DNA from: a virus
IMG/VR virus record: IMGVR_UViG_3300044647_001784
Coordinates: 22,297-86,296 of that record
Reading direction: 5' to 3' (one strand)
Length of the DNA stretch: 64,000 bases
The notes under the pieces were generated by a model. The model was given only the letters and a program-made list of their open reading frames with translations. It was not told where the DNA came from and did not search any database. Positions within the stretch are counted from its first letter, which is position 1. The number at the start of each line of letters is the position of its first letter. Position numbers and translations under genes: made by a program. Below are positions 47,701 through 63,560 of this stretch, one piece after another.

Positions 47701-47716
47701 GGTTTCACGTGGAACA
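47701..47716. promoter_or_regulatory. parS-like site (ParB loading site)
   Basis: GGTTTCACGTGGAACA, 14/16 match to TGTTTCACGTGAAACA; intergenic. Confidence 0.7.
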
Positions 47717-48034
47717 TATAATCCACATGCCCAACTATCTGAAATACCCCTTATAAAGCCCGTAGAGGCTCTCTAAGCCTTTACTAGGCTTTTGCCTACC
47801 CAAGGGCGGGAGAGGGCCAAAAAGTCCCTTTACGACGATATCTTTTATTGTCCCAAGTATAATCAATAGGACGTATATATATCAAGGTATTATATAGACT
47901 CATCTTCGTCATCGACATCAAAGATATCTCTAATCCCGCCGATTTTTTCAATTATCTGAGAAAAGAATATACTTGCAGAAAAGAATAATAGCGTAGGTAT
48001 CATAACCATTTTAAGATACTTCTTCATATATATC

Positions 48035-49247: not shown

Positions 49248-49248
49248 T

Positions 49249-49863
49249 TTATAATCCTTTTGCGTCCAGATTAGCTTTTAGACCTGAGTAAATTTCCCAT
49301 GCCTCCCAGTTGTCCTGAGCATAAGATTTTTTTACTAGATCGTCTATAATTTTCCTTGCTTCTGTTGTTTCACGAGGCCTTCTGTTTCTATTATTTTTTA
49401 AATCAATTTGATAAAATATGTCTTTAATTAAAACTTCTTCAACAATAGGGCTAATGCCAAAGTATTCCGCAACTTCTTTTATAAACTGATTATGGTTTTG
49501 CGTAACAAATTCAAAGCTAAATAACTTTATGTTGTCTATTGCCTCTATATCTTTGAAAAAATTTATGTACTCTCTAGAATGAGAATCTATTGTTAAAACA
49601 ACAGCTTGAGTATCTTTTATATCGAGGAGTTCTGCTTTTTTGTTATCGAAGTCTCTGTGCCCAGATGTGTTAATCCATCTTTCTGCACCAGATGCAATAG
49701 CATCATATGGATTTCTAATAATTGCAATCTGCTTAGCACTTTCATCTATTTCTGATCGTATATGCTTGCCGCCAATTGCTCGTTCCTTAAATGCTATGTT
49801 GAGTGCCTCTACAGCAAAGTTCATCCCTGAGCCTGCTGGGCTTACTACTACTATTTTGTTCAT
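49249..49863 (-). CDS. Sulfotransferase-fold protein
   Basis: 'SPAGSGMNF' and 'IIRNPYDAIAS' resemble the two PAPS-binding motifs. Confidence 0.55.
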   Translation of the reverse strand: MNKIVVVSPAGSGMNFAVEALNIAFKERAIGGKHIRSEIDESAKQIAIIRNPYDAIASGAERWINTSGHRDFDNKKAELLDIKDTQAVVLTIDSHSREYINFFKDIEAIDNIKLFSFEFVTQNHNQFIKEVAEYFGISPIVEEVLIKDIFYQIDLKNNRNRRPRETTEARKIIDDLVKKSYAQDNWEAWEIYSGLKANLDAKGL

Positions 49864-49889
49864 AATATTATTATACTCTTTTTATATTG

Positions 49890-49962
49890 TAGGGATACTG
49901 GGACTTGAACCCAGACTCTATTGTATATAAGACAAGTGCTTTCACCATTAAGCTATATCCCC
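49890..49962 (-). tRNA. tRNA-Ile (anticodon UAU)
   Basis: GGGGATA acceptor; D-arm GCTT/AAGC; loop CT-TAT-AT; T-arm CTGGG-TTCAAGT-CCCAG; CCA not encoded. Confidence 0.85.
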
Positions 49963-50408
49963 TAGTTTGTATAGACTTGCAGAAGTATTCCGCATATACA
50001 TACTAGGATTGATATTACACCTATCCAAAATATAGTTTTCATTTTCCGCCCTTTATTAGCTTATTGATGCAACTAACGCAAAAGTTTTCTAGTACGCCTT
50101 TTGAGTTTAATCTTTCAACGTATTTTGGTCTATCACAGAAGTTGCATTTCATAATTTAAGTATATCATATTTTTAGTTGACTGCTATTTGAGATCTTACA
50201 AAATGTTAATAAATTTTTAATATGTATGATACACATATTTGAAATGTCCGTTTTGTCTGCATAGTCCGCACATATGTTTAAGGGCTTGAGCGTGAGTGTG
50301 ATGGACCTCACAAAAGTTTTTTGACGACACGCCCGAGAAACGGGCATAAATGTCAGTCCCCCCTGCTATGCTTAAGGTATAACAAAAACAAACGAAAGGG
50401 GTCACACA

Positions 50409-50564
50409 ATGACTCAACTAACCGAAACACTATTTAGCACTATCGTGCACGATTTCCACAATGGTGGCGTAAAGTCATCTTATGGATTAGATGCGTACAC
50501 ACGCAAGGAAATCCTTGCCTACCTTATCCGCTCTAAGGGTTGCGAGTGCATCAACTGTCTGTGA
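50409..50564 (+). CDS. Small hypothetical protein (51 aa, C-terminal CxCxxC)
   Basis: Below the ORF-track cutoff; first gene behind promoter 50351 with AACGAAAGG RBS. Confidence 0.6.
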   Translation: MTQLTETLFSTIVHDFHNGGVKSSYGLDAYTRKEILAYLIRSKGCECINCL

Positions 50565-50748
50565 GGTAAATCACACGACACACCCTAGCAACCTCCCCAA
50601 TTTGTCAGCCCCATACGCTACAATTACAACATAACAACAACGAAAGGTCAGAATAAATGACACTAGATGAATACAAGGCGCTAGTAGAAGCGCAACGCAA
50701 GGAAAGCCTTGCACAAGCCCTATCCGCACTAACAAAAGAGGTTAAATA

Positions 50749-50931
50749 ATGTCATACGCATACTCATACCAAACCAATAGCGTGTCTAAGTGGGATACTA
50801 TCCAAGAGGATGTCGCAGACCAATACACTTACCTTGATGAGGTAGATGAGGAACAACCTCCACTAGATGAATTCTATGATGAAGATTCTGAACAACTAGC
50901 ACAACTATTCGCACTAACATGGGAGAACTAA
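50749..50931 (+). CDS. Small acidic hypothetical protein
   Basis: ORF track; GAGG RBS; TAATG coupling. Confidence 0.6.
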   Translation: MSYAYSYQTNSVSKWDTIQEDVADQYTYLDEVDEEQPPLDEFYDEDSEQLAQLFALTWEN

Positions 50932-51082
50932 CAATGACTATCACTTACTCACTATGGGACGGGGCACAATTCCTCGGTTTCTTTACCGCTACTAGCGCAG
51001 ATGAAATGCTAAAGGTAGTAAGCGACTTACAAAAAGTTTCTAAAAATGTAGTAGCACATATGCGAAAGGTAGAACAGAACTA

Positions 51083-51274
51083 ATGACAATAGAACTAGAT
51101 GACTACGGCTTAATGATTGACCTAGGTGATTTTCTCTATGTATCTCTATCATGGGCGTTTATTATTTTGACCGCCGTTATTCTTGTCGGTGCTAAGGTAT
51201 ACAATAAGATAAAGAGTAATAAGCAAGTAGCCCCTATCGGCTTTAACAATGATGATGATTGGATGACTAAATGA
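51083..51274 (+). CDS. Small membrane protein
   Basis: One hydrophobic segment. Confidence 0.55.
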   Translation: MTIELDDYGLMIDLGDFLYVSLSWAFIILTAVILVGAKVYNKIKSNKQVAPIGFNNDDDWMTK

Positions 51275-51940
51275 ATCGCTTACTAACTACACTAGTGCAA
51301 CTATCTATCGCTATCCCCGCCCTATACATGATGAGGATCGTGTACCATGATTTCAAGGCAGAGATGCGAGAGATGTGGCAAGAATCACACTAGGGTAACG
51401 GCGTGTCGCCTTGACAAAGGCGTCAGCTGCCCCTATCTTTTGTGGGGGGTTATCCACAGGTTAAGAAGGTCTGTGGAAAACCCCTGAAATTTTGTGAGAT
51501 TTATCACATAGGCTGAGCGTCTCACATCTTGGAATTACTCGCTAGTAAGTAGCCAAATGTCAGCCCCTTAGTGTAAAATTCCTACTATAACAACAACGAA
51601 AGGGGTCATACCTTGACCATACTAATCTCATCAGAGGTTTTAGAGAATAGAGAATTATCTAACTCTAATCCATACATGTATCAAAAAGCAAAAACTTATT
51701 TGCTATCATGCACAATTTGTGCGAATAACTATTTAGAAATTTTTGCAAAAGATGCAGACTTTACTAAATTTACTTGTGAGGAGTGCTGGTAATCATGGCA
51801 GTTTATGAGTTTAATGCTTTTATAAATGTAGAGGCTGAATCCTATGATGATGCTATTGATACATTTCAATTTCAATTAAAATACGGAATAAATCAAAATA
51901 ATGTTTATGTTGCCGACATAAGAGATTTGGAGTTAAGCGA

Positions 51941-52135
51941 ATGAAATCAGATTTCGAAAAAGATTTAGAAATTAAAGAAAGTTTTATTGATTTACTAAAT
52001 GATGTTTATCCTACTGTAAAAATTGGTTATTCAACTTTTACACCCGCCGAAATTTTAGAATGTTGCGACCCAGTAGCATTTGCAATTGGTTTAGTAGAAC
52101 ACGCAGATTATTTAGCAGAAATGGAAAACGAATGA
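51941..52135 (+). CDS. Hypothetical protein
   Basis: ORF track; GGAG RBS. Confidence 0.6.
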   Translation: MKSDFEKDLEIKESFIDLLNDVYPTVKIGYSTFTPAEILECCDPVAFAIGLVEHADYLAEMENE

Positions 52136-52504
52136 GCGACTTATTTGGATTTGAAAAAGCAATTCAGCTCGATCATCTTAGCGATGAACAAATAAATCAA
52201 TTAGAGGAAATTCTAAAAGATTATCAATAGATAGCGGCGTGTCGCCTTGACAAACAGGGCGGCACCCCCACATATGCACGGGGTCGGGCGTGTCGTTATG
52301 AAGATGTTATAAAATCCCCCGAAATTTACGGCGTGTCGATTTGACAGGGTTATCCACAGATCTCGGGCGTGTCGTCCACAGGCTAAATGTGATTACTATC
52401 ACACGGCTTGAGCGTCTCATTATTTGGATTTACTGGCTAGTAATTATCTTTTGTCAGTGCTATCCGCTATAATTGCTACTATCAACAAACGAAAGGCGGA
52501 CTCC

Positions 52505-52717
52505 ATGTCAGCAAATGTCTACACAATCGAAAGCCTACTTGTAGGAAAAATGTATCGCTCAAATTCTCTTACTGGAGAAATTATCTCAGCAGAAAAAAAT
52601 GATAGTGTCTGGTATGCAAATGCAGATACTTACAAAGTGCAGGTACGCCCAATTTATTCTGCACCGCTAAATCTAAAAGATACTTACCGCTATTTAGCCG
52701 TAAAAACTTCCGATTAA
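52505..52717 (+). CDS. Hypothetical protein
   Basis: Start moved to ATG 52505 behind promoter 52452 and GAAAGG. Confidence 0.6.
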   Translation: MSANVYTIESLLVGKMYRSNSLTGEIISAEKNDSVWYANADTYKVQVRPIYSAPLNLKDTYRYLAVKTSD

Positions 52718-52806
52718 ATAAAATCGAAACAGGGGCAGTTTAGAGAGTGTTCTCGCCCAATGTCGTAAGTAAGAACTCTCACCAATTTTTTAACGAAAGG
52801 AAAACT

Positions 52807-52971
52807 ATGCTAAACATAATCGACAAAACCGATTTCTATGAAATCGCAGATGAGCAACACTTTTGCTGTGATGAAAGTCAGTTTAAGTATTACTGTATCG
52901 AACACCTAGAATTTATGGGTTGCTACTTTTGCGGATTTGACTATGACAAAGATTGCGAGGAACAACACTAA
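52807..52971 (+). CDS. Small Cys-rich acidic protein
   Basis: AACGAAAGG RBS; CC..C..CxxC..C. Confidence 0.55.
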   Translation: MLNIIDKTDFYEIADEQHFCCDESQFKYYCIEHLEFMGCYFCGFDYDKDCEEQH

Positions 52972-53290
52972 TGGGATACATTGAGATTTTTAGAATGGAT
53001 CAAGACGGGGCGGGTTGGGTAGATTTATCCGAAGCCACCCCCGATGAACTATTTACTATTGAGGTTGGGCTACTTAATGAGGGAGCCTTATTCACTAGCC
53101 CCGAAGCCGACTAAATGTCAGTGGGCTAGGCTATAATAAGCAATAACAACAACGAAAGGAAAACTATGATTAACTCAGTAATGACTATCGAGTGCGTGGA
53201 TTGCCACGGATACGGAATTATCTTTTTTGGTAATGATAACGACTATGATTGCGAGCCATGCGATTGCGTGGAAGAATTGGAGAACAACTA

Positions 53291-53494
53291 ATGTATAAAT
53301 TAACTTGTGCTTATGACGGACACGCTCCTCATTGGTCAGCAGAATACGAAAACGAATTTGGTGCATGGGAAAACTTTTTCTTATTCACCGATTGGGGATT
53401 TGCTAACGAATACTCAACTGTAAATATTTACACGCCAACAGGCAAATGCTATACAAAAGTTTTCTACAGAACAGGAATGGTATCAGTTAAATGA
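53291..53494 (+). CDS. Hypothetical protein
   Basis: Start at TAATG overlap 53291. Confidence 0.55.
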   Translation: MYKLTCAYDGHAPHWSAEYENEFGAWENFFLFTDWGFANEYSTVNIYTPTGKCYTKVFYRTGMVSVK

Positions 53495-53682
53495 TGACAC
53501 GAAAAGATTATGTCGCAACCGCTGAAATTCTAAAGTATGTAAGCGATAAAACTCACCCCGCTGTTTTTTCTAAAATGGTAAATGATTTTGCGGAGATGTT
53601 CGCAAAAGATAATGAGCGATTTGATGTAAAACGATTTCACGAAGCGAGTGGATACAATGTTCCAAAATTCACTTCGAGATAA
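53491..53682 (+). CDS. Hypothetical protein
   Basis: 'MTRKDYVATAEIL...FAKDNERFD..RF'; ATGA overlap. Confidence 0.6.
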   Translation: MMTRKDYVATAEILKYVSDKTHPAVFSKMVNDFAEMFAKDNERFDVKRFHEASGYNVPKFTSR

Positions 53683-54038
53683 AGTAAAACGCATTCAGGA
53701 ATTGCGCCGCAGTAATGCGGCGCAACCTGTTCGCAATAAAAAAAAATACACACGCAAAATAAAACATAAAAATAAATTTGACACTTAACGCAAAATCCCG
53801 CACATAGCTGCGGGGTCGGGCGTGTCGTTAAGGACGTGATGTAAATCACCCTGGAATTTTGGGCGTGTTGTGGAAAATGTCAGTGGCCTATGGTATTATT
53901 CTCTTAAATCAAACGAAAGGCTCATCCCATGGATTTTTATGATGACTACTATGAAACAGATATGATACGCCCTGACGCTAAGTCATGCTATTGTACTAAC
54001 CATTCTATTTGTACTAATTGCACTAAGGGGTATAACTA

Positions 54039-54761
54039 ATGACTAAACTAAAAAGATCTAATGATAGAAAGGTGGCTAACCTTGTCACAAAAAATGGAAA
54101 GCAAGCCGCAATTGCGAACACGTTCGGGCTCCCTGCAGGAAAGAATTATTCATGCCCTGGTGCCACTAGTATTTGTGAGAGTGTTTGCTACGCAGGAAAA
54201 CTCGAAAAGGTATTCCCAAGCGTTAAAGTAAATCTATTGCATAACTGGGAATTACTAAAAGACGCAGACGGTGAAACTATGGTGCGTCTACTTAATGAAA
54301 TGATAATTGACTTCAAGGCTGATTGTGTAAAGAAAGACGCACCTATGCTATTCCGTATCCACTGGGACGGAGACTTCTTCAATGATACTTATGCATATGC
54401 ATGGAAAATAGTTATTGATAAGCATGAGGATGTTCAATTCTGGGTTTATACTCGTGTAAAGTCTGCGGCGCTTATTCTTAAGGATGTATCTAATCTATCG
54501 CTATACTATTCAACGGATGATGATAATAAAGAAATCGCATTCGACTTAAAAACTAATTCAAAAATCCGCCTTGCTTATCTTGGTAAGACATTCGCTGCAA
54601 CCGAAGACACAATGAAAGAATTGACTGGTAAGCCTGGTGCTAAGTGTCCTGAGAATATGAAGAGTATTCCACTTATCTCTAGCAATGGGTCCGCCTGCGT
54701 ATCTTGTGGTCTATGCGTATATGGTAAAGCGGATATTAGATTTTCTGCGAGTAAAAAATAA
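54039..54761 (+). CDS. Mycobacteriophage gp88-like Cys-rich (Fe-S / radical-SAM-like) protein
   Basis: 'FGLPAG..SCPGA...C...CYA', 'FRIHWDGDF', 'FWVYTR', C-terminal CP...CxxCxxC. Confidence 0.7.
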   Translation: MTKLKRSNDRKVANLVTKNGKQAAIANTFGLPAGKNYSCPGATSICESVCYAGKLEKVFPSVKVNLLHNWELLKDADGETMVRLLNEMIIDFKADCVKKDAPMLFRIHWDGDFFNDTYAYAWKIVIDKHEDVQFWVYTRVKSAALILKDVSNLSLYYSTDDDNKEIAFDLKTNSKIRLAYLGKTFAATEDTMKELTGKPGAKCPENMKSIPLISSNGSACVSCGLCVYGKADIRFSASKK

Positions 54762-55040
54762 TGTATGAGGTTATTGGTATGATTGGCGGATCTATGGTAA
54801 TTCTTATATCGCTCCTGCCAATTTTATTAGCTGCATATGTAATATCTAAATTGTAACAGCGTGTCGGCTTGACAATGTCAAGCTGGCCCGCAATGTTGCG
54901 GGGTTATCCACAGGTTTAAGGGGCTTATCCACAAGCCCCTGGAATTATGTGAGATTTATCACAAGGCTCATGCGTAAATAGATTAGGTAATGTCAGTGGG
55001 CTATGTTATAATTCTCTTATCCAACAACGAAAGGCAATAA

Positions 55041-55244
55041 ATGAAAATAGAACACAACCTAAAGTTTGTAACTGAGTTTGCAGACGGACACCCAATAACT
55101 GCACGGGTAATGGCACTTGATGAGTCAATGCGTACTGAAATGCTTGAAGGTATGCTAAAGGATTTAGTAGGCTCTCGCTTGCAACCAATTCTTGATGAAA
55201 TAAATGCCAATGGCTCATACGCAATTCTAAAGGTTGCTGAATAA
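55041..55244 (+). CDS. Hypothetical protein
   Basis: Behind promoter 54991 with CAACGAAAGG leader. Confidence 0.6.
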   Translation: MKIEHNLKFVTEFADGHPITARVMALDESMRTEMLEGMLKDLVGSRLQPILDEINANGSYAILKVAE

Positions 55245-55513
55245 TGGGAAGTGTAACAGCACTAGGTATTCAGGACAGTGTGTTAGATTTAGAAACACAA
55301 TTAGCCTATCACTTACAGGGTAATCACTATCCACCCGTTCCACTATCTATGGTACCAGTATGTATTCAGGCAATAGATTTTGCTTATGATGAAATGTGGG
55401 ATGAAACTATTGAAATGCCTGATGGTATTTCTTATAAGGGTGAAACATGTGCGCCAGTATGGGCGATCATCGAGGCTCACCACTTACACTTTTGGCTACC
55501 TGAAAGTGACTAA
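55244..55513 (+). CDS. Hypothetical protein
   Basis: 'HLQGNHYPPVP...IEAHHL'; TAATG coupling. Confidence 0.6.
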   Translation: MGSVTALGIQDSVLDLETQLAYHLQGNHYPPVPLSMVPVCIQAIDFAYDEMWDETIEMPDGISYKGETCAPVWAIIEAHHLHFWLPESD

Positions 55514-55608
55514 GGTCACACAATAACTTTCTCAAATAATGAGATGGGGGTTGATAAATGTCAGCCCCCAATGCTACAATACTACCCTACAAAGAAAAGA
55601 GGCAATAA

Positions 55609-55791
55609 ATGACAATACAAGATAAGTTGTATCAGGTTGGAGATTTATTCACTACCCTAAAGTCAAAAAAGACGGGCGTGATTAAAGAAATCCACCCACA
55701 AGCATCTGGCTCGGTGCGTGTGCTACTAGAAATGCCAACAAAGGAAACTCGCTGGACAACAGTATCAGCAAGCACCCTAGCAGGTAATTAG
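55609..55791 (+). CDS. Small beta-rich hypothetical protein
   Basis: Behind promoter 55559. Confidence 0.55.
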   Translation: MTIQDKLYQVGDLFTTLKSKKTGVIKEIHPQASGSVRVLLEMPTKETRWTTVSASTLAGN

Positions 55792-55876
55792 CATAGGGCA
55801 GGGGGGTCGCAGAAATGTCAGACCCTCCTGCTATACTACTCTAACAAACAACCAACCAACGAAAGAGAGAAAATAA

Positions 55877-56299
55877 ATGGCACGACAGAAAGCAATTAGC
55901 GTAAAGATAGCAACACCAAAGGTAATCAAGGCACTAGAAACTCGCTTGACAAAGTTAAATGCCGATTACGCATCACAAGAAGCCAACGAAGCAAAGCACG
56001 AAAAGGCTTTAGAAAAGTGGCGCAAAGAAGTAGGAAAGTTCGCTATGGCTAATTTTGCTAAGGCAGAAAACTTCCGCACAAACTATCGCTCATGGAATAA
56101 GACACTTAATGTTGATTTCGATTTAACAGTTAATGAGTCAGACTTTCCTAAAGAGCCTGAGAAGGACTACGAAGTTCTCCACCGCCACTCATACAATGAG
56201 ATGAAAGAGGAATTGGAAAACGCAATTCGTATTCTAAAGATGACAGATGAGGAAACAGTAAGCACAAGCACTTACAATGCTATTGCTCGTTATCTCTAA
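55877..56299 (+). CDS. Hypothetical protein
   Basis: 140 aa behind promoter 55816. Confidence 0.65.
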   Translation: MARQKAISVKIATPKVIKALETRLTKLNADYASQEANEAKHEKALEKWRKEVGKFAMANFAKAENFRTNYRSWNKTLNVDFDLTVNESDFPKEPEKDYEVLHRHSYNEMKEELENAIRILKMTDEETVSTSTYNAIARYL

Positions 56300-56308
56300 A
56301 TAATCCAA

Positions 56309-56335
56309 CGACCTGAGTATGTCGCCAAACTGCTC
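56309..56335 (+). ncRNA. Candidate small H-type pseudoknot (copy 1)
   Basis: CGAC-CTGAGTAT-GTCG-CCAAAC-TGCTC. Confidence 0.45.
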
Positions 56336-56370
56336 TCCCTTTTGGGACAACTACTAACAAAGGTAATACA

Positions 56371-56598
56371 ATGCGGTTCAAGATAGAAATGTATGACGAA
56401 GTAAAACAAAACGACTTAACAATTTATTCTGATGAAGGCTATGACAATGAAAGCCTAAAGGAATTAGTTTTCTCAAACTTAAAAAGATTTGACGGAAATG
56501 TTAAGGCTTTTGTTTATGATCAAAAAAATAAAAAGAAAACATCAGCAGCGTTCTTTCCAATGGAAACAGTAAACTATGTAAAGTCCTTATCTAAGTGA
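56371..56598 (+). CDS. Hypothetical protein
   Basis: AAAGG RBS; followed by hairpin 56601-56626. Confidence 0.55.
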   Translation: MRFKIEMYDEVKQNDLTIYSDEGYDNESLKELVFSNLKRFDGNVKAFVYDQKNKKKTSAAFFPMETVNYVKSLSK

Positions 56599-56803
56599 AA
56601 GGTGGGGCAGCTAATTCTGCCCCGCCCAAGCTTGGCCCGCAATAATGTGCGGGGTTTTCCACAGGTTTAAGAGGGCCTGTGGATAACGCCTGGAATTTGT
56701 GAGATTACTCACATGGATCAATTCGGACATATTGTAACTAATCATAGACAATGTCAGTGGGGTCTGTTATACTTACAACTAACTAAACGAAAGGTAAAAA
56801 TAT

Positions 56804-57811
56804 ATGGCTCACAATCTCGAAACCGAAAACGGCGAAGTTGCTTTTGCATTGCGTGGCGCACCTGCATGGCATAATCTTGCTAATCGTATCTTCACACAAG
56901 ATGAAGATGTTACTACTCAAATGATGTTAGATGAGGCAAAACTATCTAACTGGAATGTTCGTCTATCTCCATTGACCGACCACATCTCAGATACATGGAA
57001 TGATGTATCTAATGCTCAATTAGTTATTCGTGACAACCCATTCAATAGCGGAACTGATGTTCTTGCTACTGTTGGTAAGCGTTACAAGCCTGTGCAAAAT
57101 GAAGAATTGTTTGCATTCGCAGATGCAATTCATGATGCCAATGCTGATTGCCGTTGGGAATCTGCTGGCTCACTTCGTAGCGGTAAGGTTGTTTTTGGTA
57201 CTGTGGATATTCCTCGCACAATGGTGCTTGACCCACAAGGTGCAAATGATGAAACCAAGTTGTATCTAATTGTTTGGACATCACATGACGGGTCTGTTGC
57301 GGTTCAGGCTGCAGTTACCCCTGTTCGTGTAGTTTGCCAAAACACATTGAATCTTGCAATGCGTAATGCTAAGCAATCTTTCAAGATTCGTCACACGCAA
57401 TCTGTTGAAGGTCGCATTCAAGTAGCCCGCGAAACTCTTGGGCTTGCTCTTGGATACTTTGATGAATTTGAGAAAGAGGCTCAGGCTCTTTATTCTCAAT
57501 CAATTACTGATGCTGAATTCTCAAAGTTAATTCAGACAATTTATCCTAAGCCAGATAAAGATTCTGCTAAGGTTGCGCTAACTAAGTGGGAGAATAAGGT
57601 TGTCCTTCTTGACAATCTTTATCATAACTCACCAACTAACGCTAACATCAAGGGAACTAAGTGGGGTGCGTTCAATGCACTAACTGAACGCCTTGACTAT
57701 TATCGTTCAGGTCGCGGAAATTCTGAAACACTTATGGCTGGTGCATCAGGGTTTGACCCAATTCTTACCGCAGAAAAAAATAAAATTAAGAAATTAATTT
57801 CTGCGTTTTAA
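56804..57811 (+). CDS. DUF932 / TIGR03299-like phage/plasmid protein
   Basis: 'PAWH.L', 'VGKRYKPVQN', 'ESAGSL..G', 'SHDGS', 'TPVRVVCQNTL', 'RHT', 'WGAFNALTE'. Confidence 0.85.
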   Translation: MAHNLETENGEVAFALRGAPAWHNLANRIFTQDEDVTTQMMLDEAKLSNWNVRLSPLTDHISDTWNDVSNAQLVIRDNPFNSGTDVLATVGKRYKPVQNEELFAFADAIHDANADCRWESAGSLRSGKVVFGTVDIPRTMVLDPQGANDETKLYLIVWTSHDGSVAVQAAVTPVRVVCQNTLNLAMRNAKQSFKIRHTQSVEGRIQVARETLGLALGYFDEFEKEAQALYSQSITDAEFSKLIQTIYPKPDKDSAKVALTKWENKVVLLDNLYHNSPTNANIKGTKWGAFNALTERLDYYRSGRGNSETLMAGASGFDPILTAEKNKIKKLISAF

Positions 57812-57818
57812 TAAATAA

Positions 57819-57846
57819 ATTCCTGAGCATGAATAAAAACTGCTCA
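57819..57846 (+). ncRNA. Candidate small H-type pseudoknot (copy 2)
   Basis: ATTC-CTGAGCAT-GAAT-AAAAAC-TGCTCA. Confidence 0.45.
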
Positions 57847-57858
57847 CAATTTTTTCTA

Positions 57859-57932
57859 GGTCCATTAGCTCAGTTGGTTAGAGCGCTACCCTGTCACGGT
57901 AGAGGTCGACGGTTCAAGTCCGTTATGGATCG
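57859..57932 (+). tRNA. tRNA-Asp (anticodon GUC)
   Basis: GGTCCAT/ATGGATC acceptor; CTACC-CTGTCAC-GGTAG anticodon arm; GACGG-TTCAAGT-CCGTT T-arm. Confidence 0.9.
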
Positions 57933-58038
57933 CAAATCGCCCGCAATATTTAGGGACAAAAAAGTGTGTTAAGTGTCACATAAAAAAATCCCTGGAATCT
58001 ATAGACAAATGTCAGTGGGACCCTGTATAATTCTCTAC

Positions 58039-58656
58039 ATGACCAACGAACTAGTATCAAGCGTATATACATTTGTCTGTGACCCAGATGAATGCGATTC
58101 TTTAATTCAATTAACATCATCTGATGGATTTGGTTTTCCTTCAGGTGTGACAGAACTCACATGCCCTTGCGGACGTAAGACCACCTTATTGTCAGTCGAG
58201 CATGCTACAATTACACCAACAACAACGGAAGAGGTAAAAATGGAAACAACTACAGACAATCACTACATGACACGAGAATTCCTTGAGTCACAGTTAGTAG
58301 ATAACAAAGCCCGCATTACACAGTTAGAAGAGCACATCCAGCGTATAACTCAGCGTGATTATGCAACTGCAGGAACTCTAAGCAAATTGCGTGATGACAT
58401 GAAGGTATTCACACTCGAAGGCCTTGATGACGAATCTCTTACAGAATTTCAAGCAGAAGAAATTGCTGGCATCTGTGGATTTGAACTAACAAATGAGTTT
58501 GAACTAGAAGTAACAGTTCTATATTCAATTACAGTTAATGCTCGTGATGAAGAGAGTGCACATAATCTAATTCATGATATTGATTTTGACACCGTGTCTT
58601 ATGACTCAGACGGTATTAGTTGGCTATCATCATCTGTAGATAGAATTGAGAACTAA
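58039..58656 (+). CDS. Hypothetical protein; leaderless long form (Cys-rich N-terminus) with internal start at 58240
   Basis: ATG 7 nt after the -10 of promoter 58010; a second promoter (58190) and GAGG RBS precede in-frame ATG 58240. Confidence 0.6.
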   Translation: MTNELVSSVYTFVCDPDECDSLIQLTSSDGFGFPSGVTELTCPCGRKTTLLSVEHATITPTTTEEVKMETTTDNHYMTREFLESQLVDNKARITQLEEHIQRITQRDYATAGTLSKLRDDMKVFTLEGLDDESLTEFQAEEIAGICGFELTNEFELEVTVLYSITVNARDEESAHNLIHDIDFDTVSYDSDGISWLSSSVDRIEN

Positions 58657-58976
58657 TGTTAAAAGAAGGAGAAAACATTGTTTACCTTAAATTAAGAATT
58701 CAAAATGAAATAAAAGATTTAAGTTTAAATCATCCTGAATTATTAGAAGAGTATAAGCAAGATGCAATTAAATCTATTTTTAATTCAGCTATCCTTAAAG
58801 AAACTTTGTCCGTTAAAGAGTTTAGGGATTTAGTGTCAACAGTACGACCTGATTTTTATGAGGGGTATACGATTGAAGATGCAGAAGCGGAATGGGAATC
58901 TATAAAAACAGGCATGATTATTGTTTCTCTTTTTGTTGTGATAGTTGGCGCTCTTATACTTAAGTGGGTGTTCTAA
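58656..58976 (+). CDS. Hypothetical protein with C-terminal TM helix
   Basis: ORF track; TAATG coupling. Confidence 0.55.
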   Translation: MLKEGENIVYLKLRIQNEIKDLSLNHPELLEEYKQDAIKSIFNSAILKETLSVKEFRDLVSTVRPDFYEGYTIEDAEAEWESIKTGMIIVSLFVVIVGALILKWVF

Positions 58977-59179
58977 TGTACTTTGAACTTACCGCTCCAT
59001 CTCGTGTAGCCTTTGCGAGGGCCATTTGGGATGCAGAAATAACTGGACTAGACCCTGAAGCAATGAGTGCATTGACATTCAACATAGGAACTGGTAGTAT
59101 TGAGAAAGTAAGTAGGATTCGTGATAAGTATAACTTAATTGAATCTTATGTAAGCGACAGTAAAACTACAGGATACTAG
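58976..59179 (+). CDS. Hypothetical protein
   Basis: Start at TAATG overlap. Confidence 0.55.
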   Translation: MYFELTAPSRVAFARAIWDAEITGLDPEAMSALTFNIGTGSIEKVSRIRDKYNLIESYVSDSKTTGY

Positions 59180-59330
59180 GAGATAAAATGTCAGACTATA
59201 AAGATGGTTTTGAAGATGGGTACAAGTTTGCCCGTGAAGAAATTATAGAAAAACTATCAGAGATTGATATCGCAGATATTGATACATGGATTCTTGATCG
59301 TCTATCTGACATGATAGAAGGCGGAACGCT

Positions 59331-59528
59331 ATGAACGAATGGGTTGGGTGCGATAAGTGTAACTCAGTAGTACCTGCAATGTATTTAATTAAAATGGTTA
59401 GCGGAGAGCTTTCTTTCTGTGGACACCACTTTAATAAGTTCAAGCCTAGTCTTGACAAAATCGCTTACGAAGTGATAGAATTAAACAAAAAGGAAGAAGT
59501 ACCTCAACTAGTAGAAATGGCGGAATAA
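59331..59528 (+). CDS. Small Zn-finger-like protein (CxxC...CxHH)
   Basis: 'CDKC...LSFCGHH'. Confidence 0.6.
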   Translation: MNEWVGCDKCNSVVPAMYLIKMVSGELSFCGHHFNKFKPSLDKIAYEVIELNKKEEVPQLVEMAE

Positions 59529-59529
59529 A

Positions 59530-59931
59530 ATGGGAGATAGAGCAAACTTCGGATTTAAACAATCCAATGGAGAAACAATTGTGCTATACGGACACTGGGC
59601 TGGACATGGAATGTTAGAGCGCTTAGCAGATGCTGTTGAAGCAGCACGTTCTAGGTGGGGAGATGAATCATATGCTACCCGCATTGCGGTTTCGCATTTA
59701 GTTGGAGAACAATGGCAAGATACAACTGGATGGGGATTATCTGTTAATAACATCCTAGACAACGAGCACAAGATTCCTGTGATTGACTGGAATACACAAA
59801 CGTTTTCACTGCACGAAGAGGCGCCTTGGTCCGAGTCGACAGAATATAAGGTCCGTGGAATGCAAGACGAGCCCATATTCAAAATGACATTGGATTCATT
59901 TATTAATAAGTACTCAAGGGTTAATGCATAA
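59530..59931 (+). CDS. Hypothetical protein
   Basis: 133 aa; 'LYGHWAG'. Confidence 0.65.
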   Translation: MGDRANFGFKQSNGETIVLYGHWAGHGMLERLADAVEAARSRWGDESYATRIAVSHLVGEQWQDTTGWGLSVNNILDNEHKIPVIDWNTQTFSLHEEAPWSESTEYKVRGMQDEPIFKMTLDSFINKYSRVNA

Positions 59932-59940
59932 TTAATCTAA

Positions 59941-60067
59941 GGGTGCCCCTATAGTCATTAATGGCCAGGGGTTAAATAAAGCAGAGTTCTTTTACTTTCG
60001 TTGGTGAACCTCTAGCAGCCTATGTAAAACCCCAGTTATGGAATAAGCCCCTACAGCTGGGGTTTTT
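59941..60067 (+). ncRNA. Candidate sRNA / structured 3' UTR with anti-RBS loop
   Basis: Three successive hairpins, the last terminator-like; the middle loop is TTTTACTTTCGTTGGT. Confidence 0.5.
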
Positions 60068-60246
60068 GCATGGCCCGCAAAAGACTAAGGGTAATATATT
60101 TCTTTTACGGTGTCAATATGAAATCGCCTGGAATTTTGTGATCTTGACCACATGCATACAAAATGTGGTGTGAAACACACCCAAATAGTATTCCATTTGT
60201 CAGTGGTCCAATGTATAATTATCACATATCAACGAAAGGATATAAA

Positions 60247-60981
60247 ATGCCAAATTGGGTATTTAATGGATTAACAATTGAAGGTAATCCTGAGCAAGTA
60301 AAATCTTTAATCAAGCAGATGAATAAGCCATTTGTTTATTCTATTACTGCATTAGGTGATTTATCATATGATGTCAAGCAGACTAAGTATATTAATCCTA
60401 TCTTTGCTTTTCATAATATCTATAACTATAGAGATGCTGGTATTACTGATGAGGTATATCATGGACAGCCTCCTCGTTCCACCGATTTTTCTCAGGCAAT
60501 GAAGTTTGAAACCAATGACTGGTACAACTTTAATGTGCGTGAGTGGGGAACCAAGTGGGATGTTGCTGTAGCAGAGGATAATAAGTATCCTGATACAACT
60601 ATTGAAGAAGCAGAAAATGGCGAGAACTATGTAGTTCATTACAATTTTAATACTGCATGGTCACGACCTCTTGGCGCTATTGAAAAACTATCTGCACAAT
60701 ACCCAACACTACTCTTTACTTTATCATATGAGGAAGAGACAGGTTGGGGTGGAGAAATGGAATTCCTCCGTGGTGAAGTTATCTCAGAATCAGAATACGA
60801 TAATATGTGCCGTGATTGTGATGCAACTGACCAAATGGAATACTGCGAGAATGACTGCGGTGAAATCTGTAGCAACTGCAACTGGCTTGGCGAGGCAGAC
60901 CTAGAGGCTGTCGCAATTTGTCAGACCCATAAGATATACTTAGACACTAAAGTACCCGAATATAGAAAGGCGGAAGCATAA
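60247..60981 (+). CDS. DUF1281/YubB ferredoxin-like family protein with Cys-rich tail
   Basis: 'MPNW', 'WYNFNVREWGTKWD', 'FNTAWSRP', 'YEEE'. Confidence 0.7.
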   Translation: MPNWVFNGLTIEGNPEQVKSLIKQMNKPFVYSITALGDLSYDVKQTKYINPIFAFHNIYNYRDAGITDEVYHGQPPRSTDFSQAMKFETNDWYNFNVREWGTKWDVAVAEDNKYPDTTIEEAENGENYVVHYNFNTAWSRPLGAIEKLSAQYPTLLFTLSYEEETGWGGEMEFLRGEVISESEYDNMCRDCDATDQMEYCENDCGEICSNCNWLGEADLEAVAICQTHKIYLDTKVPEYRKAEA

Positions 60982-61193
60982 TGGAAGCATTTACAGATAC
61001 AGTAGGAGAACATATCCTTGGAGCAATTCAAGTAGATATTGAGCAACATCTCTTTGAACAATGGAACAGCAAAAATTTAGATGAGGGTAGCGATTATGCT
61101 GAATATATGTTCATGCAATTTGCTCCTGATAGCCTAAAGCAATCATACAATGAGTATTATGGCTATATTGAGGGAGATGAGTTTCTATTATGA
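60981..61193 (+). CDS. Hypothetical acidic protein
   Basis: ORF track; TAATG coupling. Confidence 0.55.
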   Translation: MEAFTDTVGEHILGAIQVDIEQHLFEQWNSKNLDEGSDYAEYMFMQFAPDSLKQSYNEYYGYIEGDEFLL

Positions 61194-61505
61194 TTACATC
61201 ACAAGAACTACTTGACTATATGTATGATGACAACTTAAGTCATTTTGACGACAGAGACACATCAGATGATTGTGATTGTTATATTCACATAACACTTAAT
61301 ACTATGCTTAAATACATGGAGGCAATAGAATGTTAGGATATACTAAAACAGATATAGATGAAATGGGGAATGCTATGCATGACGCCAAGCTTTTCTATAT
61401 TCTTAAATCAGATATCGTTCGTGTTGATGAAGATCCAATTGTGGACGGGCTACTAAAAGCACAAGACTTTCTACAGGGCTTATGGGCAGAAGGGTACTTT
61501 GACTA

Positions 61506-61742
61506 ATGAAGTTTGGCGATGCTATGGTTCTTGCTCTACTTATTCAAATCCCGTTGATTCCCGTGGTTGCTTTTGTTGATTGGATTAATGCCCCTGATAA
61601 ACCAGATAAAGTAGTTTGTTATTATCAGGGAGGGTTTGGACATTTTGATGACCCAACTGTACACAAATACACAACAATTGGAAACTGTTCAATAACTCAT
61701 AAACAAAGATACTTTCTGAAAAAGGAGATAATTAATGACTAA
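61506..61742 (+). CDS. Small membrane/secreted protein
   Basis: N-terminal hydrophobic stretch. Confidence 0.5.
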   Translation: MKFGDAMVLALLIQIPLIPVVAFVDWINAPDKPDKVVCYYQGGFGHFDDPTVHKYTTIGNCSITHKQRYFLKKEIIND

Positions 61743-61944
61743 GTCATCTTATTTCCTGGAGTATATGAAGTTACATCTAATTAGTCTTAATCAAGATTGG
61801 GAAGATTCTAAAAATAGCGTACCTTTAAATGAAGATGAATATGACCCTTCAGATGATTACTATGTAGGAGCAACTGAGGCTGTTGAACATTTATTGTCAG
61901 TGGCTACTGATATAATGAATTCTTCTAACGAAAGGTATGAATAA
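61735..61944 (+). CDS. Hypothetical protein
   Basis: AGGAG RBS; contains promoter 61895. Confidence 0.55.
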   Translation: MTKSSYFLEYMKLHLISLNQDWEDSKNSVPLNEDEYDPSDDYYVGATEAVEHLLSVATDIMNSSNERYE

Positions 61945-62147
61945 TGAATATAACATCTAGAGAAGTTACTTATCGTTCCGCCGTTGAACAAATCTTTTTT
62001 GAGGACGGGACAGAATTGGTAATCACAGTCGGTGCTCCTGCCGAAGGCGGAGGAGATATCGATATTAAATATGATTGGGTAGAAGGAAAGCCTGATTGGG
62101 CAAACAACTTAAATGAATCAACACTAGTGAACTATGAGGTAATCTAA
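61944..62147 (+). CDS. Hypothetical protein
   Basis: Behind promoter 61895 with AACGAAAGG. Confidence 0.55.
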   Translation: MNITSREVTYRSAVEQIFFEDGTELVITVGAPAEGGGDIDIKYDWVEGKPDWANNLNESTLVNYEVI

Positions 62148-62419
62148 TGAATGCAGAAGACATTGGGCTCCCACCTCATTTGCAACGCATGGTCAATGCA
62201 GGTGTTAGTGGATTAGATATAATGCACGGAGAACTAAAGAATCTAATGTTAATTGCTGAGCAAGACCTAGCAAGCGCATTAGAACAGGAGGAATTGTCTG
62301 AAGAGGCAATGGATTCCATGGTCCGCACAGAATGTGAAGGGCGCCTAGACATGCTAGTAGAACTATATAATCTAACATACCAACTATCATTTGCGATTGG
62401 AGCACGGGATGAAGCCTGA
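62147..62419 (+). CDS. Hypothetical protein
   Basis: GAGG RBS; TAATG coupling. Confidence 0.55.
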   Translation: MNAEDIGLPPHLQRMVNAGVSGLDIMHGELKNLMLIAEQDLASALEQEELSEEAMDSMVRTECEGRLDMLVELYNLTYQLSFAIGARDEA

Positions 62420-63517: not shown

Positions 63518-63560
63518 AAGATATCCATAGGATCTACACAGGTCCTGTGGATATCTTTTT
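63518..63560 (+). terminator. Intrinsic terminator
   Basis: AAGATATCCATAGGATC-tacaca-GGTCCTGTGGATATCTTTTT. Confidence 0.7.

What the first reader, a model, noticed from the sequence alone, without database searches (positions are those of the whole stretch)
50351..61916. Phage small-gene region driven by 14 copies of the actinobacterial PafBC (RecA-NDp) DNA-damage promoter
Seen: TGTCAG followed exactly 10 nt later by TAnnnT, 14 times (50351, 50603, 51558, 52452, 53116, 53878, 54991, 55559, 55816, 56752, 58010, 58190, 60198, 61895). All are on the + strand and each precedes an RBS or a leaderless ATG. The structural genes instead show ordinary extended -10 or TTG-N17-TA promoters. Established: the LexA-independent RecA-NDp promoter of Actinobacteria is tTGTCRgtg-N8-TAnnnT. 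It is activated by the WYL-domain factor PafBC, which senses single-stranded nucleic acid and lets sigma-A RNA polymerase use a -26 element in place of -35. Inference: the phage wires a whole expression class to the host DNA-damage activator, or to its own WYL mimic encoded outside the window, so DNA entry or damage would switch these genes on. I do not know of this being described as a phage transcription programme.
Basis: partly seen in the sequence, partly recalled or inferred. Interest (0 to 1): 0.92.

Follow-up and report, generated by a model that had tools for sequence, protein, structure and literature searches.

The report
Lake phage promoters copy host DNA-damage promoters
A lake phage related to Streptomyces phages drives its block of small genes from 15 promoters whose core matches the promoter type that Actinobacteria use for DNA-damage genes such as recA, so the phage may switch on through the host's damage sensor.

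Summary
All copies are on the + strand at 50351-61916, against 0.78 expected by chance, and there are none elsewhere in the 86-kb record.

Each copy is the core of a cassette of about 60 nt: an A-rich stretch, TGTCAG, an extended -10 (TGn), TAtAAT, a CA-rich leader, a GAAAGG ribosome site and a start codon.

The phage is a 38% GC lake siphovirus. Its portal and DnaE are 54-58% identical to those of Streptomyces phages (Stanwilliamsviridae).

At least 119 IMG/VR stretches of the same lineage carry the cassette. The spacing is rigid: 637 copies at N10 against at most 14 at any other spacer. The only common variant is TGTCGG, the R of the published motif.

The geometry equals the published PafBC motif tGTCgg(N10)tA(N3)T.

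In small-genome freshwater Actinobacteria the same core sits before recA (30 of 30 loci of one order), before a dnaE2 operon and before a LysM gene with an SOS box. All 31 genomes searched carry tandem pafB-pafC.

No WYL gene was found in this phage or in five complete relatives.

PafBC dependence itself is untested, and the host is not identified. Two other first-stage notes cover this same stretch. I found no paper describing such a phage programme.

The parts
50351..50372 (+). promoter core 1 (TGTCAG-N10-TATGCT); start codon at 50409
50603..50624 (+). promoter core 2; start codon at 50657
51558..51579 (+). promoter core 3; TTG start at 51613
52452..52473 (+). promoter core 4; start codon at 52505
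53116..53137 (+). promoter core 5; start codon at 53166
53878..53899 (+). promoter core 6; start codon at 53929; the unit includes the GP88-family gene 54039-54761
54991..55012 (+). promoter core 7; start codon at 55041
55559..55580 (+). promoter core 8; start codon at 55609
55816..55837 (+). promoter core 9; start codon at 55877; 18 of 22 bases identical to a host recA core (L166)
56752..56773 (+). promoter core 10; start codon at 56804 (DUF932 protein)
58010..58031 (+). promoter core 11; leaderless-type ATG at 58039 opens a 205-codon frame to 58656
58190..58211 (+). promoter core 12, inside that frame; SD and ATG at 58240 give a 138-aa shorter form
60198..60219 (+). promoter core 13; start codon at 60247 (protein with an Api92-like ferredoxin domain)
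61895..61916 (+). promoter core 15; lies in the 3' end of the preceding gene; start codon at 61944
50297..60152 (.). span holding all 11 CRP-type palindromes of the window (at least 9 of 10 half-site bases). They start at 50297, 50560, 51374, 51493, 52388, 54948, 55505, 56698, 57965, 58146 and 60137. Ten of them start 43-65 nt before the T of a TGTCAG
   Evidence: phasing in relatives
50351..62419 (+). small-gene arm: about 45 short + strand genes in about 15 transcription units (putative early or host-takeover genes), plus tRNA-Asp at 57859-57933

Best explanation
The 15 sites are the core of the promoters that transcribe the phage's small-gene arm with the host's housekeeping (sigma-A) RNA polymerase. 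Each promoter lacks a -35 hexamer. It has a near-consensus extended -10 and, exactly 10 nt upstream, the hexamer TGTC(A/G)G at about -28 to -23. This is the architecture of actinobacterial PafBC-dependent (RecA-NDp) promoters. In those promoters the PafB winged helix reads the GTC of a -26 element and PafC bridges to sigma region 4 ('sigma adaptation'), once single-stranded DNA has bound the WYL domains.

I infer that this lake-phage lineage has copied the promoter type its actinobacterial host uses for recA, dnaE2 and other damage genes. Host PafBC would then load RNA polymerase on the arm, probably together with a Crp-family protein bound at phased upstream sites.

Shown here: the motif, its rigidity, its spread through the lineage, its identity with the published motif and with host damage-gene promoters, the presence of pafB-pafC in candidate hosts, and the absence of a WYL gene in the phages.

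Inferred: PafBC binding, dependence on ssDNA or damage, early timing, and the identity of the host.
For: (1) Motif and geometry. There are 15 exact copies on one strand against 0.78 expected. The published in vivo PafBC motif is the 22-nt tGTCgg(N10)tA(N3)T, with its 5' part at -23 to -28, no -35, and the GTC read by PafB R46/R50 (passages of PMC8635444).

(2) Selection on the element. In 119 related IMG/VR stretches (1.1 Mb) there are 813 copies, and only 4 lie on the minority strand of their stretch. Before a good -10, TGTCAG occurs 637 times at spacer 10 and at most 14 times at any spacer from 5 to 15. The only other common hexamer in that slot is TGTCGG (103), which is the R of the RecA-NDp consensus.

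(3) Actinophage ancestry. Portal and DnaE are 54-58% identical to Streptomyces phages of the Stanwilliamsviridae. The GP88-family gene in the arm hits 388 phage records: 283 Mycobacterium, 99 Streptomyces, 4 Fromanvirus and 2 Synechococcus.

(4) Host side. In 30 of 30 recA loci from one order of 1.2-2.2 Mb Actinomycetota genomes, and in 2 of 2 further lake MAGs, nGTC[AG]G-N10-TAnnnT lies upstream of recA. In 24 of these 32 it is TGTCAG, with the same TGG or CCC continuation and the same TGn as in the phage. The same core, followed by an SOS-box-like palindrome, precedes a DUF6504-DnaE2 operon in three genomes and a LysM gene in one. In the host, several copies lie 28 nt before an ATG. This places the transcription start about 7 nt after the hexamer, as a promoter would.

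(5) The factor is present. Tandem WYL genes occur in 31 of 31 genomes of that order. One pair matches solved PafB (E 4e-39) and PafC (E 9e-22), and the residues aligned to the DNA-reading arginines are conserved.

(6) No WYL domain is encoded by this phage or by five 98-100% complete relatives. No WhiB or sigma factor appears among 76 small ORFs.

(7) The other known -26 activator, SiwR, uses a GGA triplet, not GTC.
Against: There is no experiment of any kind: binding, PafBC dependence and inducibility are all inferred.

The host is not identified. The genome-contig scan gave only 17 hits, spread over MAGs of several phyla. Most are short contigs that may be mis-binned phage DNA.

The phage -10 regions are close to consensus and 78% have the G of an extended -10. 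Such promoters can work without any activator, so the -26 element may modulate rather than enable transcription.

More than half of the promoters in the lineage also carry a CRP-type site in an activating position, which could be the main activator.

In host genomes the loose 22-nt pattern is no more frequent than its reversed control: 8-15 against 7-17 per genome. The host regulon therefore rests on gene identity and conservation, not on counts.

In a phylum-wide sample only 3 of 16 evaluable recA loci showed the motif in my search frame, so the link is lineage-specific, not universal.

Four cultured relatives do not use the motif, so it is not an ancestral trait of the phage family.

All IMG/VR carriers that could be tested belong to one phage lineage (portal 62-81% identical). 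I could not show that unrelated phages of the same host share the motif.
Confidence: 0.6

Rival explanations
1. The promoters work without an activator, through their extended -10. The invariant TGTCAG has another role: an operator for a phage protein that later shuts the arm off, or a decoy that soaks up host PafBC and so blunts the host's damage and defence response.
For: The -10 is near consensus and TGn is frequent. A site between -10 and -35 is a classic operator position (established knowledge). About 15 sites per genome copy would outnumber the 8-15 matches per host genome. A host island with a C5-methylase and TPR and protease genes uses the same promoters, which would give a decoy something to compete against.
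Against: A pure operator or decoy does not need single-base rigidity of distance to the -10 (637 against at most 14). Host recA and dnaE2 promoters have the same TGn together with the -26 element, so the two features belong together in the host as well. No candidate phage repressor was found. The only HTH-like ORF is below the Pfam cut-off and lies outside the arm.
Confidence: 0.15
2. A phage-encoded or virion-delivered protein reads the -26 element and redirects sigma-A, in the manner of T4 MotA/AsiA at middle promoters. The likeness to the PafBC motif would then be mimicry of the site or convergence.
For: The motif is a trait of one phage lineage and is missing in cultured relatives. Many ORFs of the arm have no known family. 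This record is only about 80% complete.
Against: The host's own recA, dnaE2 and LysM genes use the same core, so a host reader must exist. No WYL, WhiB, sigma or PafB-like HTH was found in this phage or in five complete relatives. If the arm is the first class expressed, no phage protein is yet available unless it is injected.
Confidence: 0.12
3. A host factor other than PafBC reads the -26 element in these streamlined Actinobacteria. It could be another -26-binding activator, or a special property of their sigma-A, RbpA or CarD. The Crp-family protein at the phased upstream sites would then be the real switch.
For: Phased CRP-type sites precede 444 of 827 promoters. A Crp-family gene is present in 31 of 31 candidate host genomes. 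A third WYL protein of 722-748 aa is present in 27 of the 31 genomes. Nothing is known experimentally about transcription in these bacteria.
Against: The element equals the ChIP-seq and cryo-EM-defined PafBC site in sequence, position and spacing. The genes it marks in the host are the classic PafBC and LexA dual-control genes. The PafB reading residues are conserved. SiwR, the one other -26 activator described, uses a different triplet.
Confidence: 0.1

Closest known systems
PafBC-dependent (RecA-NDp) promoters of Actinobacteria, read by 'sigma adaptation'
   Same: A 22-nt bipartite motif with the GTC-containing hexamer at -28 to -23, exactly 10 nt before TAnnnT. A or G at hexamer position 5. 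No -35. Use of housekeeping sigma-A. The same core stands at recA and dnaE2 of candidate hosts.
   Different: Known only in chromosomal damage regulons. Here there are 13-17 copies per phage genome, packed into 10-12 kb. They are fused to a conserved CA-rich leader and ribosome site, and are often combined with a phased CRP-type site. The -10 is much closer to consensus than in the host promoters. Binding by PafBC is not shown.
T4 middle promoters (MotA box plus AsiA, 'sigma appropriation'); recalled, and named as a parallel in PMC8635444
   Same: A phage class of promoters in which a box close to the -10 replaces the -35, and an adaptor protein sits between the DNA and sigma region 4.
   Different: In T4 both adaptor proteins are made by the phage, and the box differs in sequence and distance. 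Here no phage adaptor is found, and the box equals a host regulator's site.
Clusters of strong early promoters in host-takeover regions of large lytic phages such as SPO1 and T5
   Same: Many closely spaced same-strand promoters before very small genes at one end of the genome.
   Different: Those are ordinary -35/-10 promoters read by the unaided host holoenzyme.
Phage genes wired to the host SOS response through LexA boxes
   Same: A phage listens to the host's DNA-damage signal.
   Different: Those cases involve release of a repressor at one or a few genes of temperate phages. Here it would be an activator-type promoter used for a whole gene class, and no integrase or repressor was seen.
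Class I CRP-dependent promoters (positions recalled)
   Same: Palindromes of the TGTGA-N6-TCACA type upstream of the core, at centres one helical turn apart.
   Different: The centres are about 3 bp off the E. coli positions under my assumed start site. They are combined with a -26 element, a pairing I have not seen described.

Membership tests
PafBC-dependent / RecA-NDp promoter class | Hexamer tGTCgg (GTC invariant, R at position 5) at about -28 to -23 | tested here: met
   15 of 15 sites are TGTCAG. In relatives, 16 nt before a good -10, TGTCAG occurs 637 times, TGTCGG 103 times and the next hexamer 25 times. Motif taken from PMC8635444.
PafBC-dependent / RecA-NDp promoter class | Exactly 10 nt between the hexamer and a sigma-A type TAnnnT -10 | tested here: met
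   Spacer 10 gives 637 copies. Spacers 5-9 and 11-15 give 0-14 each.
PafBC-dependent / RecA-NDp promoter class | No -35 element | tested here: met
   The canonical -35/-10 scan gives 54 against 45.0 expected. Information at the -35 position is near zero.
PafBC-dependent / RecA-NDp promoter class | Acts in an actinobacterium that has PafB and PafC | tested here: inconclusive
   Actinophage ancestry is shown. Tandem pafB-pafC occurs in 31 of 31 genomes of a candidate host order, with the DNA-reading arginines conserved. The true host is not identified.
PafBC-dependent / RecA-NDp promoter class | The same motif marks the host's DNA-damage genes | tested here: met
   recA in 30 of 30 loci of the order plus 2 of 2 MAGs. 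DUF6504-DnaE2 operon with an SOS-box-like palindrome in G006, G008 and G043, and a LysM gene with such a box in G043.
PafBC-dependent / RecA-NDp promoter class | PafBC binds with RNAP, and transcription needs PafBC plus ssDNA and is induced by DNA damage | not testable with these tools
   Needs in vitro transcription, EMSA or reporters. Metatranscriptome contigs show only that the arm is present in RNA libraries.
Phage-encoded WYL (PafBC-like) activator | A WYL domain encoded by the phage | tested here: not met
   A six-frame PF13280 search at E up to 1 gave 0 of 1 for the own record and 0 of 5 for complete relatives. The control rang in 9 of 14 known genomes.
SiwR-type -26 promoters | Conserved GGA triplet in a palindrome at -26 | tested here: not met
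   The element here is a non-palindromic TGTCAG. SiwR feature taken from passages of PMC10693628.
Stanwilliamsviridae-like siphovirus (the phage itself) | Portal and DnaE closest to that family | tested here: met
   54-58% identity over 94-99% of the length to BillNye, Circinus, Samisti12, Coruscant and others. Taxonomy line. The similarity is at family or above-family distance, and the promoter class is not shared.

The most novel reading that the evidence does not exclude
A widespread lineage of about 115-kb lake actinophages runs its whole host-takeover gene class from promoters that copy the host's PafBC ('sigma adaptation') DNA-damage promoters, combined with phased Crp sites. The ssDNA alarm set off by phage entry, restriction or damage would then be the very signal that fires the phage programme. 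The host uses the same alarm for recA, dnaE2 and an island holding methylase, TPR and protease genes. The 13-17 high-affinity sites per phage genome would at the same time compete with those host promoters for PafBC. This would be the first phage transcription programme built on a WYL-family activator, and the first on a host factor that replaces the -35 contact.
Probability: 0.4. Interest if true: 0.9.

Novelty: new variant of a known kind. Interest (0 to 1): 0.8.

Why it matters
PafBC promoters are known only from chromosomal damage regulons of mycobacteria and their kin. Finding the same core, under strong selection, as the standard promoter of a gene class in a globally distributed lake-phage lineage would matter in several ways.

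(1) It would show a new way for a phage to take over transcription: by borrowing a host -35-replacing activator in place of making its own, as T4 does.

(2) It would link phage gene expression to the ssDNA-sensing WYL family, which is otherwise known for switching on anti-phage defences.

(3) It gives hundreds of natural promoter variants (827 unique sites) that define what the PafBC-type element tolerates.

(4) It gives a sequence signature that may help assign hosts to uncultured freshwater actinophages, whose hosts lack CRISPR (stated in PMC10202952).

(5) It is directly testable with existing M. smegmatis PafBC reagents.

Tried and rejected
Near (megablast) search of the arm against cultured phages gave no match. 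A distant blastn of 1 kb holding three cassettes gave only noise-level hits to enterobacterial and other phages. No cultured phage with this cassette was found that way.

The genome-contig scan with the full cassette gave 17 stretches, about the number chance allows by my rough estimate. They were spread over MAGs labelled Clostridia, Bacteroidia, Planctomycetaceae, Gammaproteobacteria, Polynucleobacter, cyanobacterium and Actinomycetota, and many are short contigs. I rejected this as host evidence and used three actinobacterial MAGs only as entry points to their genomes.

Genome-wide counts of the loose pattern in host genomes are not above the reversed control, so I dropped enrichment as an argument.

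In the phylum-wide recA test my anchor regex failed on 11 of 27 loci. Three of the 16 evaluable loci had the motif. This is weak and says only that the motif near recA is not universal in my search frame.

A test for unrelated phages carrying the motif was not achieved. Of the 30 IMG/VR records searched for the portal, 15 had one, all 62-81% identical. The other 15, all incomplete records (28-81% complete), gave no answer.

Accession KU886271, a predicted Nanopelagicales phage named in PMC10202952, is not in the phage collection. The two isolated Planktophila phages have no accession in the text I read.

Metatranscriptomes: two runs of one study hold about half of the arm's sampled words, as contigs identical to the window. 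Contigs cannot show starts, strand or level, and no table of starts was returned. Several contig ends lie 20-50 nt after predicted starts, but I do not count this. Stretches without RNA cover (for example 47104-50358 in X20, and most of it in X21) are recorded here only and are not evidence.

I looked for a phage regulator. Pfam on 76 small ORFs found one HTH_17-like ORF, below the cut-off (21.7 bits against 27), at record 14288-14449 on the - strand and outside the arm. There was no WhiB and no sigma factor. My own regex for HTH_17 found nothing.

The TGTCGG copy at 51184 was rejected as a 16th promoter because it has no leader and no ribosome site.

The host island of G043 shares no protein similarity with the phage, so it is not a related prophage.

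A reverse-strand -35 reading of TGTCAG was considered and dropped: no -10 follows on that strand in the aligned flanks.

Supplements of papers were closed. The PafBC regulon lists and any prophage entries in them could bear on novelty, and I could not see them. The 2025 ACS Infect Dis paper on pafBC and mycobacteriophage resistance was seen only as a citation.

Full report
**1. The observation**

The pattern TGTCAG-N10-TAnnnT occurs 15 times in the window. All copies are on the + strand, between 50351 and 61916. Shuffles give 0.78 expected (sd 0.89), and none of 100 reached 15. The window is bases 22297-86296 of an 86,296-base IMG/VR virus record rated 80% complete. The rest of the record has no further copy, and the reversed control pattern has none. 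With one mismatch allowed there are 34 matches, 19 beyond the 15 exact copies, against 21.85 expected for all matches. The family is therefore sharply defined.

**2. Anatomy**

The shared elements run in this order:
- two or three A residues;
- TGTCAG;
- T, A or C, followed by two or three G or C (either TGG or CCC);
- a TGn extended -10;
- TA(T/C)A(A/C)T;
- a short CA-rich leader that often ends in AACGAAAGG;
- a start codon.

In 14 of 15 sites the start codon lies 49-62 nt after the T of TGTCAG. At 58010 an ATG lies 7 nt after the hexamer, in frame with a 205-codon ORF, so this is a leaderless-type arrangement. The next promoter (58190) lies inside that ORF, before a ribosome site and an ATG that would give a 138-residue shorter form.

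There is no -35. A canonical scan of the arm gives 54 sites against 45.0 expected, and the -35 position carries almost no information.

The arm holds about 45 short + strand genes. The few with a family are a GP88-family protein, a DUF932 protein and a protein with an Api92-like ferredoxin domain.

**3. The phage**

The - strand of the window and the 22 kb before it encode the following:
- a 3692-residue tape measure protein;
- a portal protein;
- two Mtd_N-headed fibre proteins;
- a ribonucleotide reductase;
- DnaE-type polymerase, DnaB helicase, a primase and RecA;
- a PD-(D/E)XK nuclease;
- several 2OG-Fe(II) oxygenases.

GC content is 0.38. Portal and DnaE are 54-58% identical, over 94-99% of their length, to Streptomyces phages BillNye, Circinus, Samisti12, Coruscant and others. 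These belong to the family Stanwilliamsviridae. The GP88-family gene of the arm hits 388 phage records, of which 386 are Mycobacterium, Streptomyces or Fromanvirus phages. The low GC does not argue against an actinobacterial host.

**4. The lineage**

GC of these stretches is 0.335-0.42. They hold 813 copies of the 22-nt pattern in 1.1 Mb, and only 4 copies lie on the minority strand of their stretch.

Five relatives of 113-117 kb (98-100% complete, three with terminal repeats) each carry 13-17 copies. The copies lie in one block of 10-12 kb on one strand, with at most one stray copy elsewhere.

Of 30 records searched for the portal, 15 had one, 62-81% identical to ours. The other 15, all incomplete records (28-81% complete), gave no answer. 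This is therefore one diverse lineage.

Lake-water metagenomes of many studies hold the arm almost word for word.

Four cultured relatives have 0-3 copies of TGTCRG-N10-TAnnnT, which is the level of the reversed control: BillNye, Samisti12, Coruscant and Muntaha. The promoter class belongs to the lake lineage, not to the family.

**5. Selection on the element**

In the 119 stretches, before TA[TC]A[AC]T, TGTCAG is found 637 times at spacer 10. At each other spacer from 5 to 15 it is found 0-14 times. On the opposite strand there are 0 at spacer 10. Among all hexamers in that slot, TGTCAG (637) is followed by TGTCGG (103), and the third has 25.

The logo of 827 unique sites gives these frequencies:

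| Position (counted from 0 at the T of TGTCAG) | Base frequencies |
|---|---|
| 4 | A 0.86, G 0.14 |
| 6 | T 0.67, A 0.26 |
| 7 and 8 | G or C at 0.93 each |
| 14 | G 0.78 |

The sites were selected with TGTC[AG]G and TAnnnT, so those columns are invariant by construction.

**6. Comparison with the known promoter class**

I read passages of PMC8635444. The in vivo PafBC motif is the 22-nt tGTCgg(N10)tA(N3)T. Its 3' part is the sigma-A -10, and its 5' part lies at -23 to -28. No -35 exists. PafB R46 and R50 read the two G:C pairs of the GTC triplet. PafC contacts sigma region 4. The authors call this 'sigma adaptation' and themselves name T4 MotA/AsiA as the nearest parallel.

The review PMC8223512 (passages) states that the PafBC motif closely resembles the older RecA-NDp motif, that it extends to other Actinobacteria, and that recA, uvrA and uvrC carry both this promoter and an SOS box. 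The abstract of PMC11804915 states that ssDNA binding to the WYL domains activates PafBC.

The phage element matches in sequence, position, spacing and the single tolerated variant. SiwR, the other described -26 activator, uses a GGA triplet in a palindrome (passages of PMC10693628), so it does not fit.

**7. The host side**

Three lake MAGs labelled Actinomycetes or Actinomycetota (1.3-1.7 Mb) each contain a short contig with the cassette. These contigs may be mis-binned phage DNA, but they gave me entry to related genomes.

*recA.* I took recA loci from the order of one of these MAGs. The 31 genomes are 1.2-2.2 Mb and many are single contigs. In 30 of 30 such loci, and in the two other MAGs, nGTC[AG]G-N10-TAnnnT lies upstream of recA. 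In 27 of the 32 it is TGTC[AG]G, split as 24 TGTCAG and 3 TGTCGG. The commonest form is TGTCAGTGGCGCCTGCTACCTT, and CCC variants also occur. One of them (L166) shares 18 of 22 bases with the phage site at 55816. By my own rough estimate, about 0.015 such matches are expected by chance in a 500-nt frame. The loci are orthologous, so the count shows conservation, not independent events.

*Other damage genes.* In G006 and G008 the core TGTCAGTCC-N7-TATTTT is followed at once by an SOS-box-like palindrome. It precedes a DUF6504 gene, which in G008 is followed by a DnaE2-like polymerase gene (the polymerase ORF was checked in G008 only). In G043 the same core stands before a similar small ORF that was not scanned against Pfam, and a related core with such a palindrome precedes a LysM-domain gene. 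A LysM gene beside lexA is a classic damage-inducible gene in M. tuberculosis; that statement is recalled.

*Start sites.* In G043 five copies lie exactly 28 nt before an ATG. That puts the start about 7 nt after the hexamer, as expected for leaderless actinobacterial mRNAs.

*The factor.* All 31 genomes of the order have two adjacent WYL ORFs of about 300-350 residues. In G043 the first matches solved PafB chains (9fnd_X, 7p5x_AY; E 4e-39) over its full length. The second matches PafC (7p5x_AX, E 9e-22) and the second half of the fused Arthrobacter PafBC (6sj9). In the printed alignment the residues opposite the two reading arginines and several backbone contacts are identical. I derived the numbering offset of +2 in chain 9fnd_X from the chain lengths.

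*Limits.* Genome-wide, the loose pattern is no more frequent than its reversed control. It is a small regulon and not a general promoter form. In a phylum-wide sample only 3 of 16 evaluable recA loci had it in my frame.

**8. Does the phage bring its own reader?**

A six-frame search with the WYL model found nothing at E up to 1 in this record or in the five complete relatives. The same search rang in 9 of 14 control genomes. Pfam on 76 small ORFs and 28 larger ones found no WhiB, no sigma factor and no PafB-like HTH. One HTH_17-like ORF, below the cut-off, lies in the replication region.

**9. Other parts of the cassette**

All 11 palindromes of the TGTGA-N6-TCACA type (at least 9 of 10 half-site bases) in the 64-kb window lie at 50297-60152. 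Ten of them start 43-65 nt before the T of a TGTCAG. In the lineage, 444 of 827 unique promoters have such a site within 120 nt. Site centres peak at 10-bp steps: -54.5, -64.5, -74.5, -84.5 and -95.5, if the -10 hexamer is numbered -12 to -7. That is one face of the helix, as at class I CRP-dependent promoters (recalled).

A Crp-family gene is present in 31 of 31 genomes of the candidate order.

Further recurrent upstream modules are DnaA-box-like nonamers, often in inverted pairs, and the motifs CCCTGGAATT and CTTGAGCGTCTCA.

Two other first-stage notes on this same stretch name the palindromes and the modular spacers. I tested the first and only partly the second.

**10. Explanation and rivals**

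The best reading (0.6) is that host sigma-A RNA polymerase is recruited to the arm by host PafBC at the -26 element, with a Crp-family protein as a second input.

Three steps are shown: promoter architecture, selection on the element, and host use of the same core together with presence of the factor. Four are inferred: binding, dependence on ssDNA, early timing, and host identity.

The rivals are as follows.
- Activator-independent extended -10 promoters in which the hexamer serves as an operator or as a PafBC decoy (0.15).
- A phage-made or injected MotA-like reader (0.12).
- Another host reader, with Crp as the real switch (0.1).

The near-consensus -10 with TGn is the strongest point against strict dependence. 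The single-base rigidity of spacing, and the same TGn in the host recA promoters, speak against a mere operator.

**11. Novelty**

I ran three full-text searches: PafBC / RecA-NDp / phage (67 papers held at least two of the terms, 20 listed); PafBC + mycobacteriophage + promoter (11 papers, 9 listed); and 'sigma adaptation' + bacteriophage (6 papers). None gave a title or abstract about phage promoters of this class. A citation seen in PMC12848934 points to a 2025 paper on pafBC and mycobacteriophage resistance, which I could not read. Supplements were closed.

I rate the finding a new variant of a known kind: a known promoter class, in a new carrier, with a new role and a new combination.

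**12. Expression data**

Two metatranscriptome runs of one study hold about half of the arm's sampled words, as contigs identical to the window. This shows presence in RNA libraries only. Contigs give no start, strand or level.

Noticed in passing
window 50297-60152: All 11 CRP-type palindromes of the window (TGTGA-N6-TCACA, at least 9 of 10) lie in the arm, and 10 start 43-65 nt before the T of a TGTCAG. In the lineage they precede 444 of 827 promoters, with centres 10 bp apart, so they sit on one face of the helix. Another first-stage note (e1-6123204) covers this.
   Followed up: yes
window 51450/51472, 52350, 54904, 54925, 56655/56678, 53869: DnaA-box-like nonamers (TTATCCACA and near variants), some as inverted pairs, lie upstream of the CRP-type sites. 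The plain nonamer occurs before 118 of 827 promoters in the lineage. They could mark an origin, titrate DnaA, or serve a regulatory use. This is unexplained.
   Followed up: partly
window 53850, 54938, 56689, 57991, 60127; 51515, 52410: Two further recurrent upstream modules were seen: CCTGGAAT(T), strongly strand-biased (99 against 3 in the lineage), and (CTT)GAGCGTCTCA. No known factor was assigned.
   Followed up: no
window 58010-58656: Promoter 11 is followed 7 nt after its -10 by an ATG that opens a 205-codon frame with a Cys-rich N-terminus. Promoter 12 lies inside that frame, before a ribosome site and an ATG that give a 138-residue form. The result would be two nested proteins from two promoters. 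The promoter pair, 180 nt apart, is conserved in four complete relatives, G001-G004.
   Followed up: partly
G043:C1:437001-472000 (L198, L199): A 35-kb stretch of a candidate host genome holds nine copies of the TGTC[AG]G-N10-TAnnnT core. Four of them lie 28 nt before an ATG, which suggests leaderless mRNAs. The genes behind them include two TPR proteins, a trypsin-like peptidase, a C5 DNA methylase, an OGG-like glycosylase and unknowns. GC is 0.45 and there is no protein similarity to the phage. It may be a damage- or phage-responsive island. Similar clusters sit at like positions in G049 and G054.
   Followed up: partly
L160 (G008) and L162 (G007): A small Cys-rich protein beginning MIIDC, with no Pfam family, has the TGTCAG core 28-29 nt before its ATG in two MAGs. 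It is a conserved member of the presumed regulon with unknown function.
   Followed up: no
window 2041-13119 (- strand): A tape measure protein of 3692 residues, which implies a very long tail.
   Followed up: no
window 25414-30650, 46240-47646, and L009 4543-5388: Many 2OG-Fe(II) oxygenase paralogues: 6 of 76 small ORFs, plus two in the + strand block at 46-47.6 kb. Two DUF6065 genes were also seen. Other first-stage notes cover these.
   Followed up: no
window 49889-49962 (-) and 57859-57933 (+): tRNA-Ile(TAT) and tRNA-Asp(GTC). The latter sits inside the small-gene arm, just before promoter 11.
   Followed up: no
window 63518-63557: An 18-pair hairpin followed by a T run, which looks like a terminator, lies near the end of the contig. 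The last 1.6 kb of the arm (62.4-64 kb) has no TGTCAG core but has several canonical -35/-10 matches with TGn, at 62879, 63124 and 63623.
   Followed up: no
window 59941-60067: Another first-stage note (e1-6123203) proposes a small RNA antisense to the shared leader and ribosome site. I did not test it. The shared leader itself is real.
   Followed up: no
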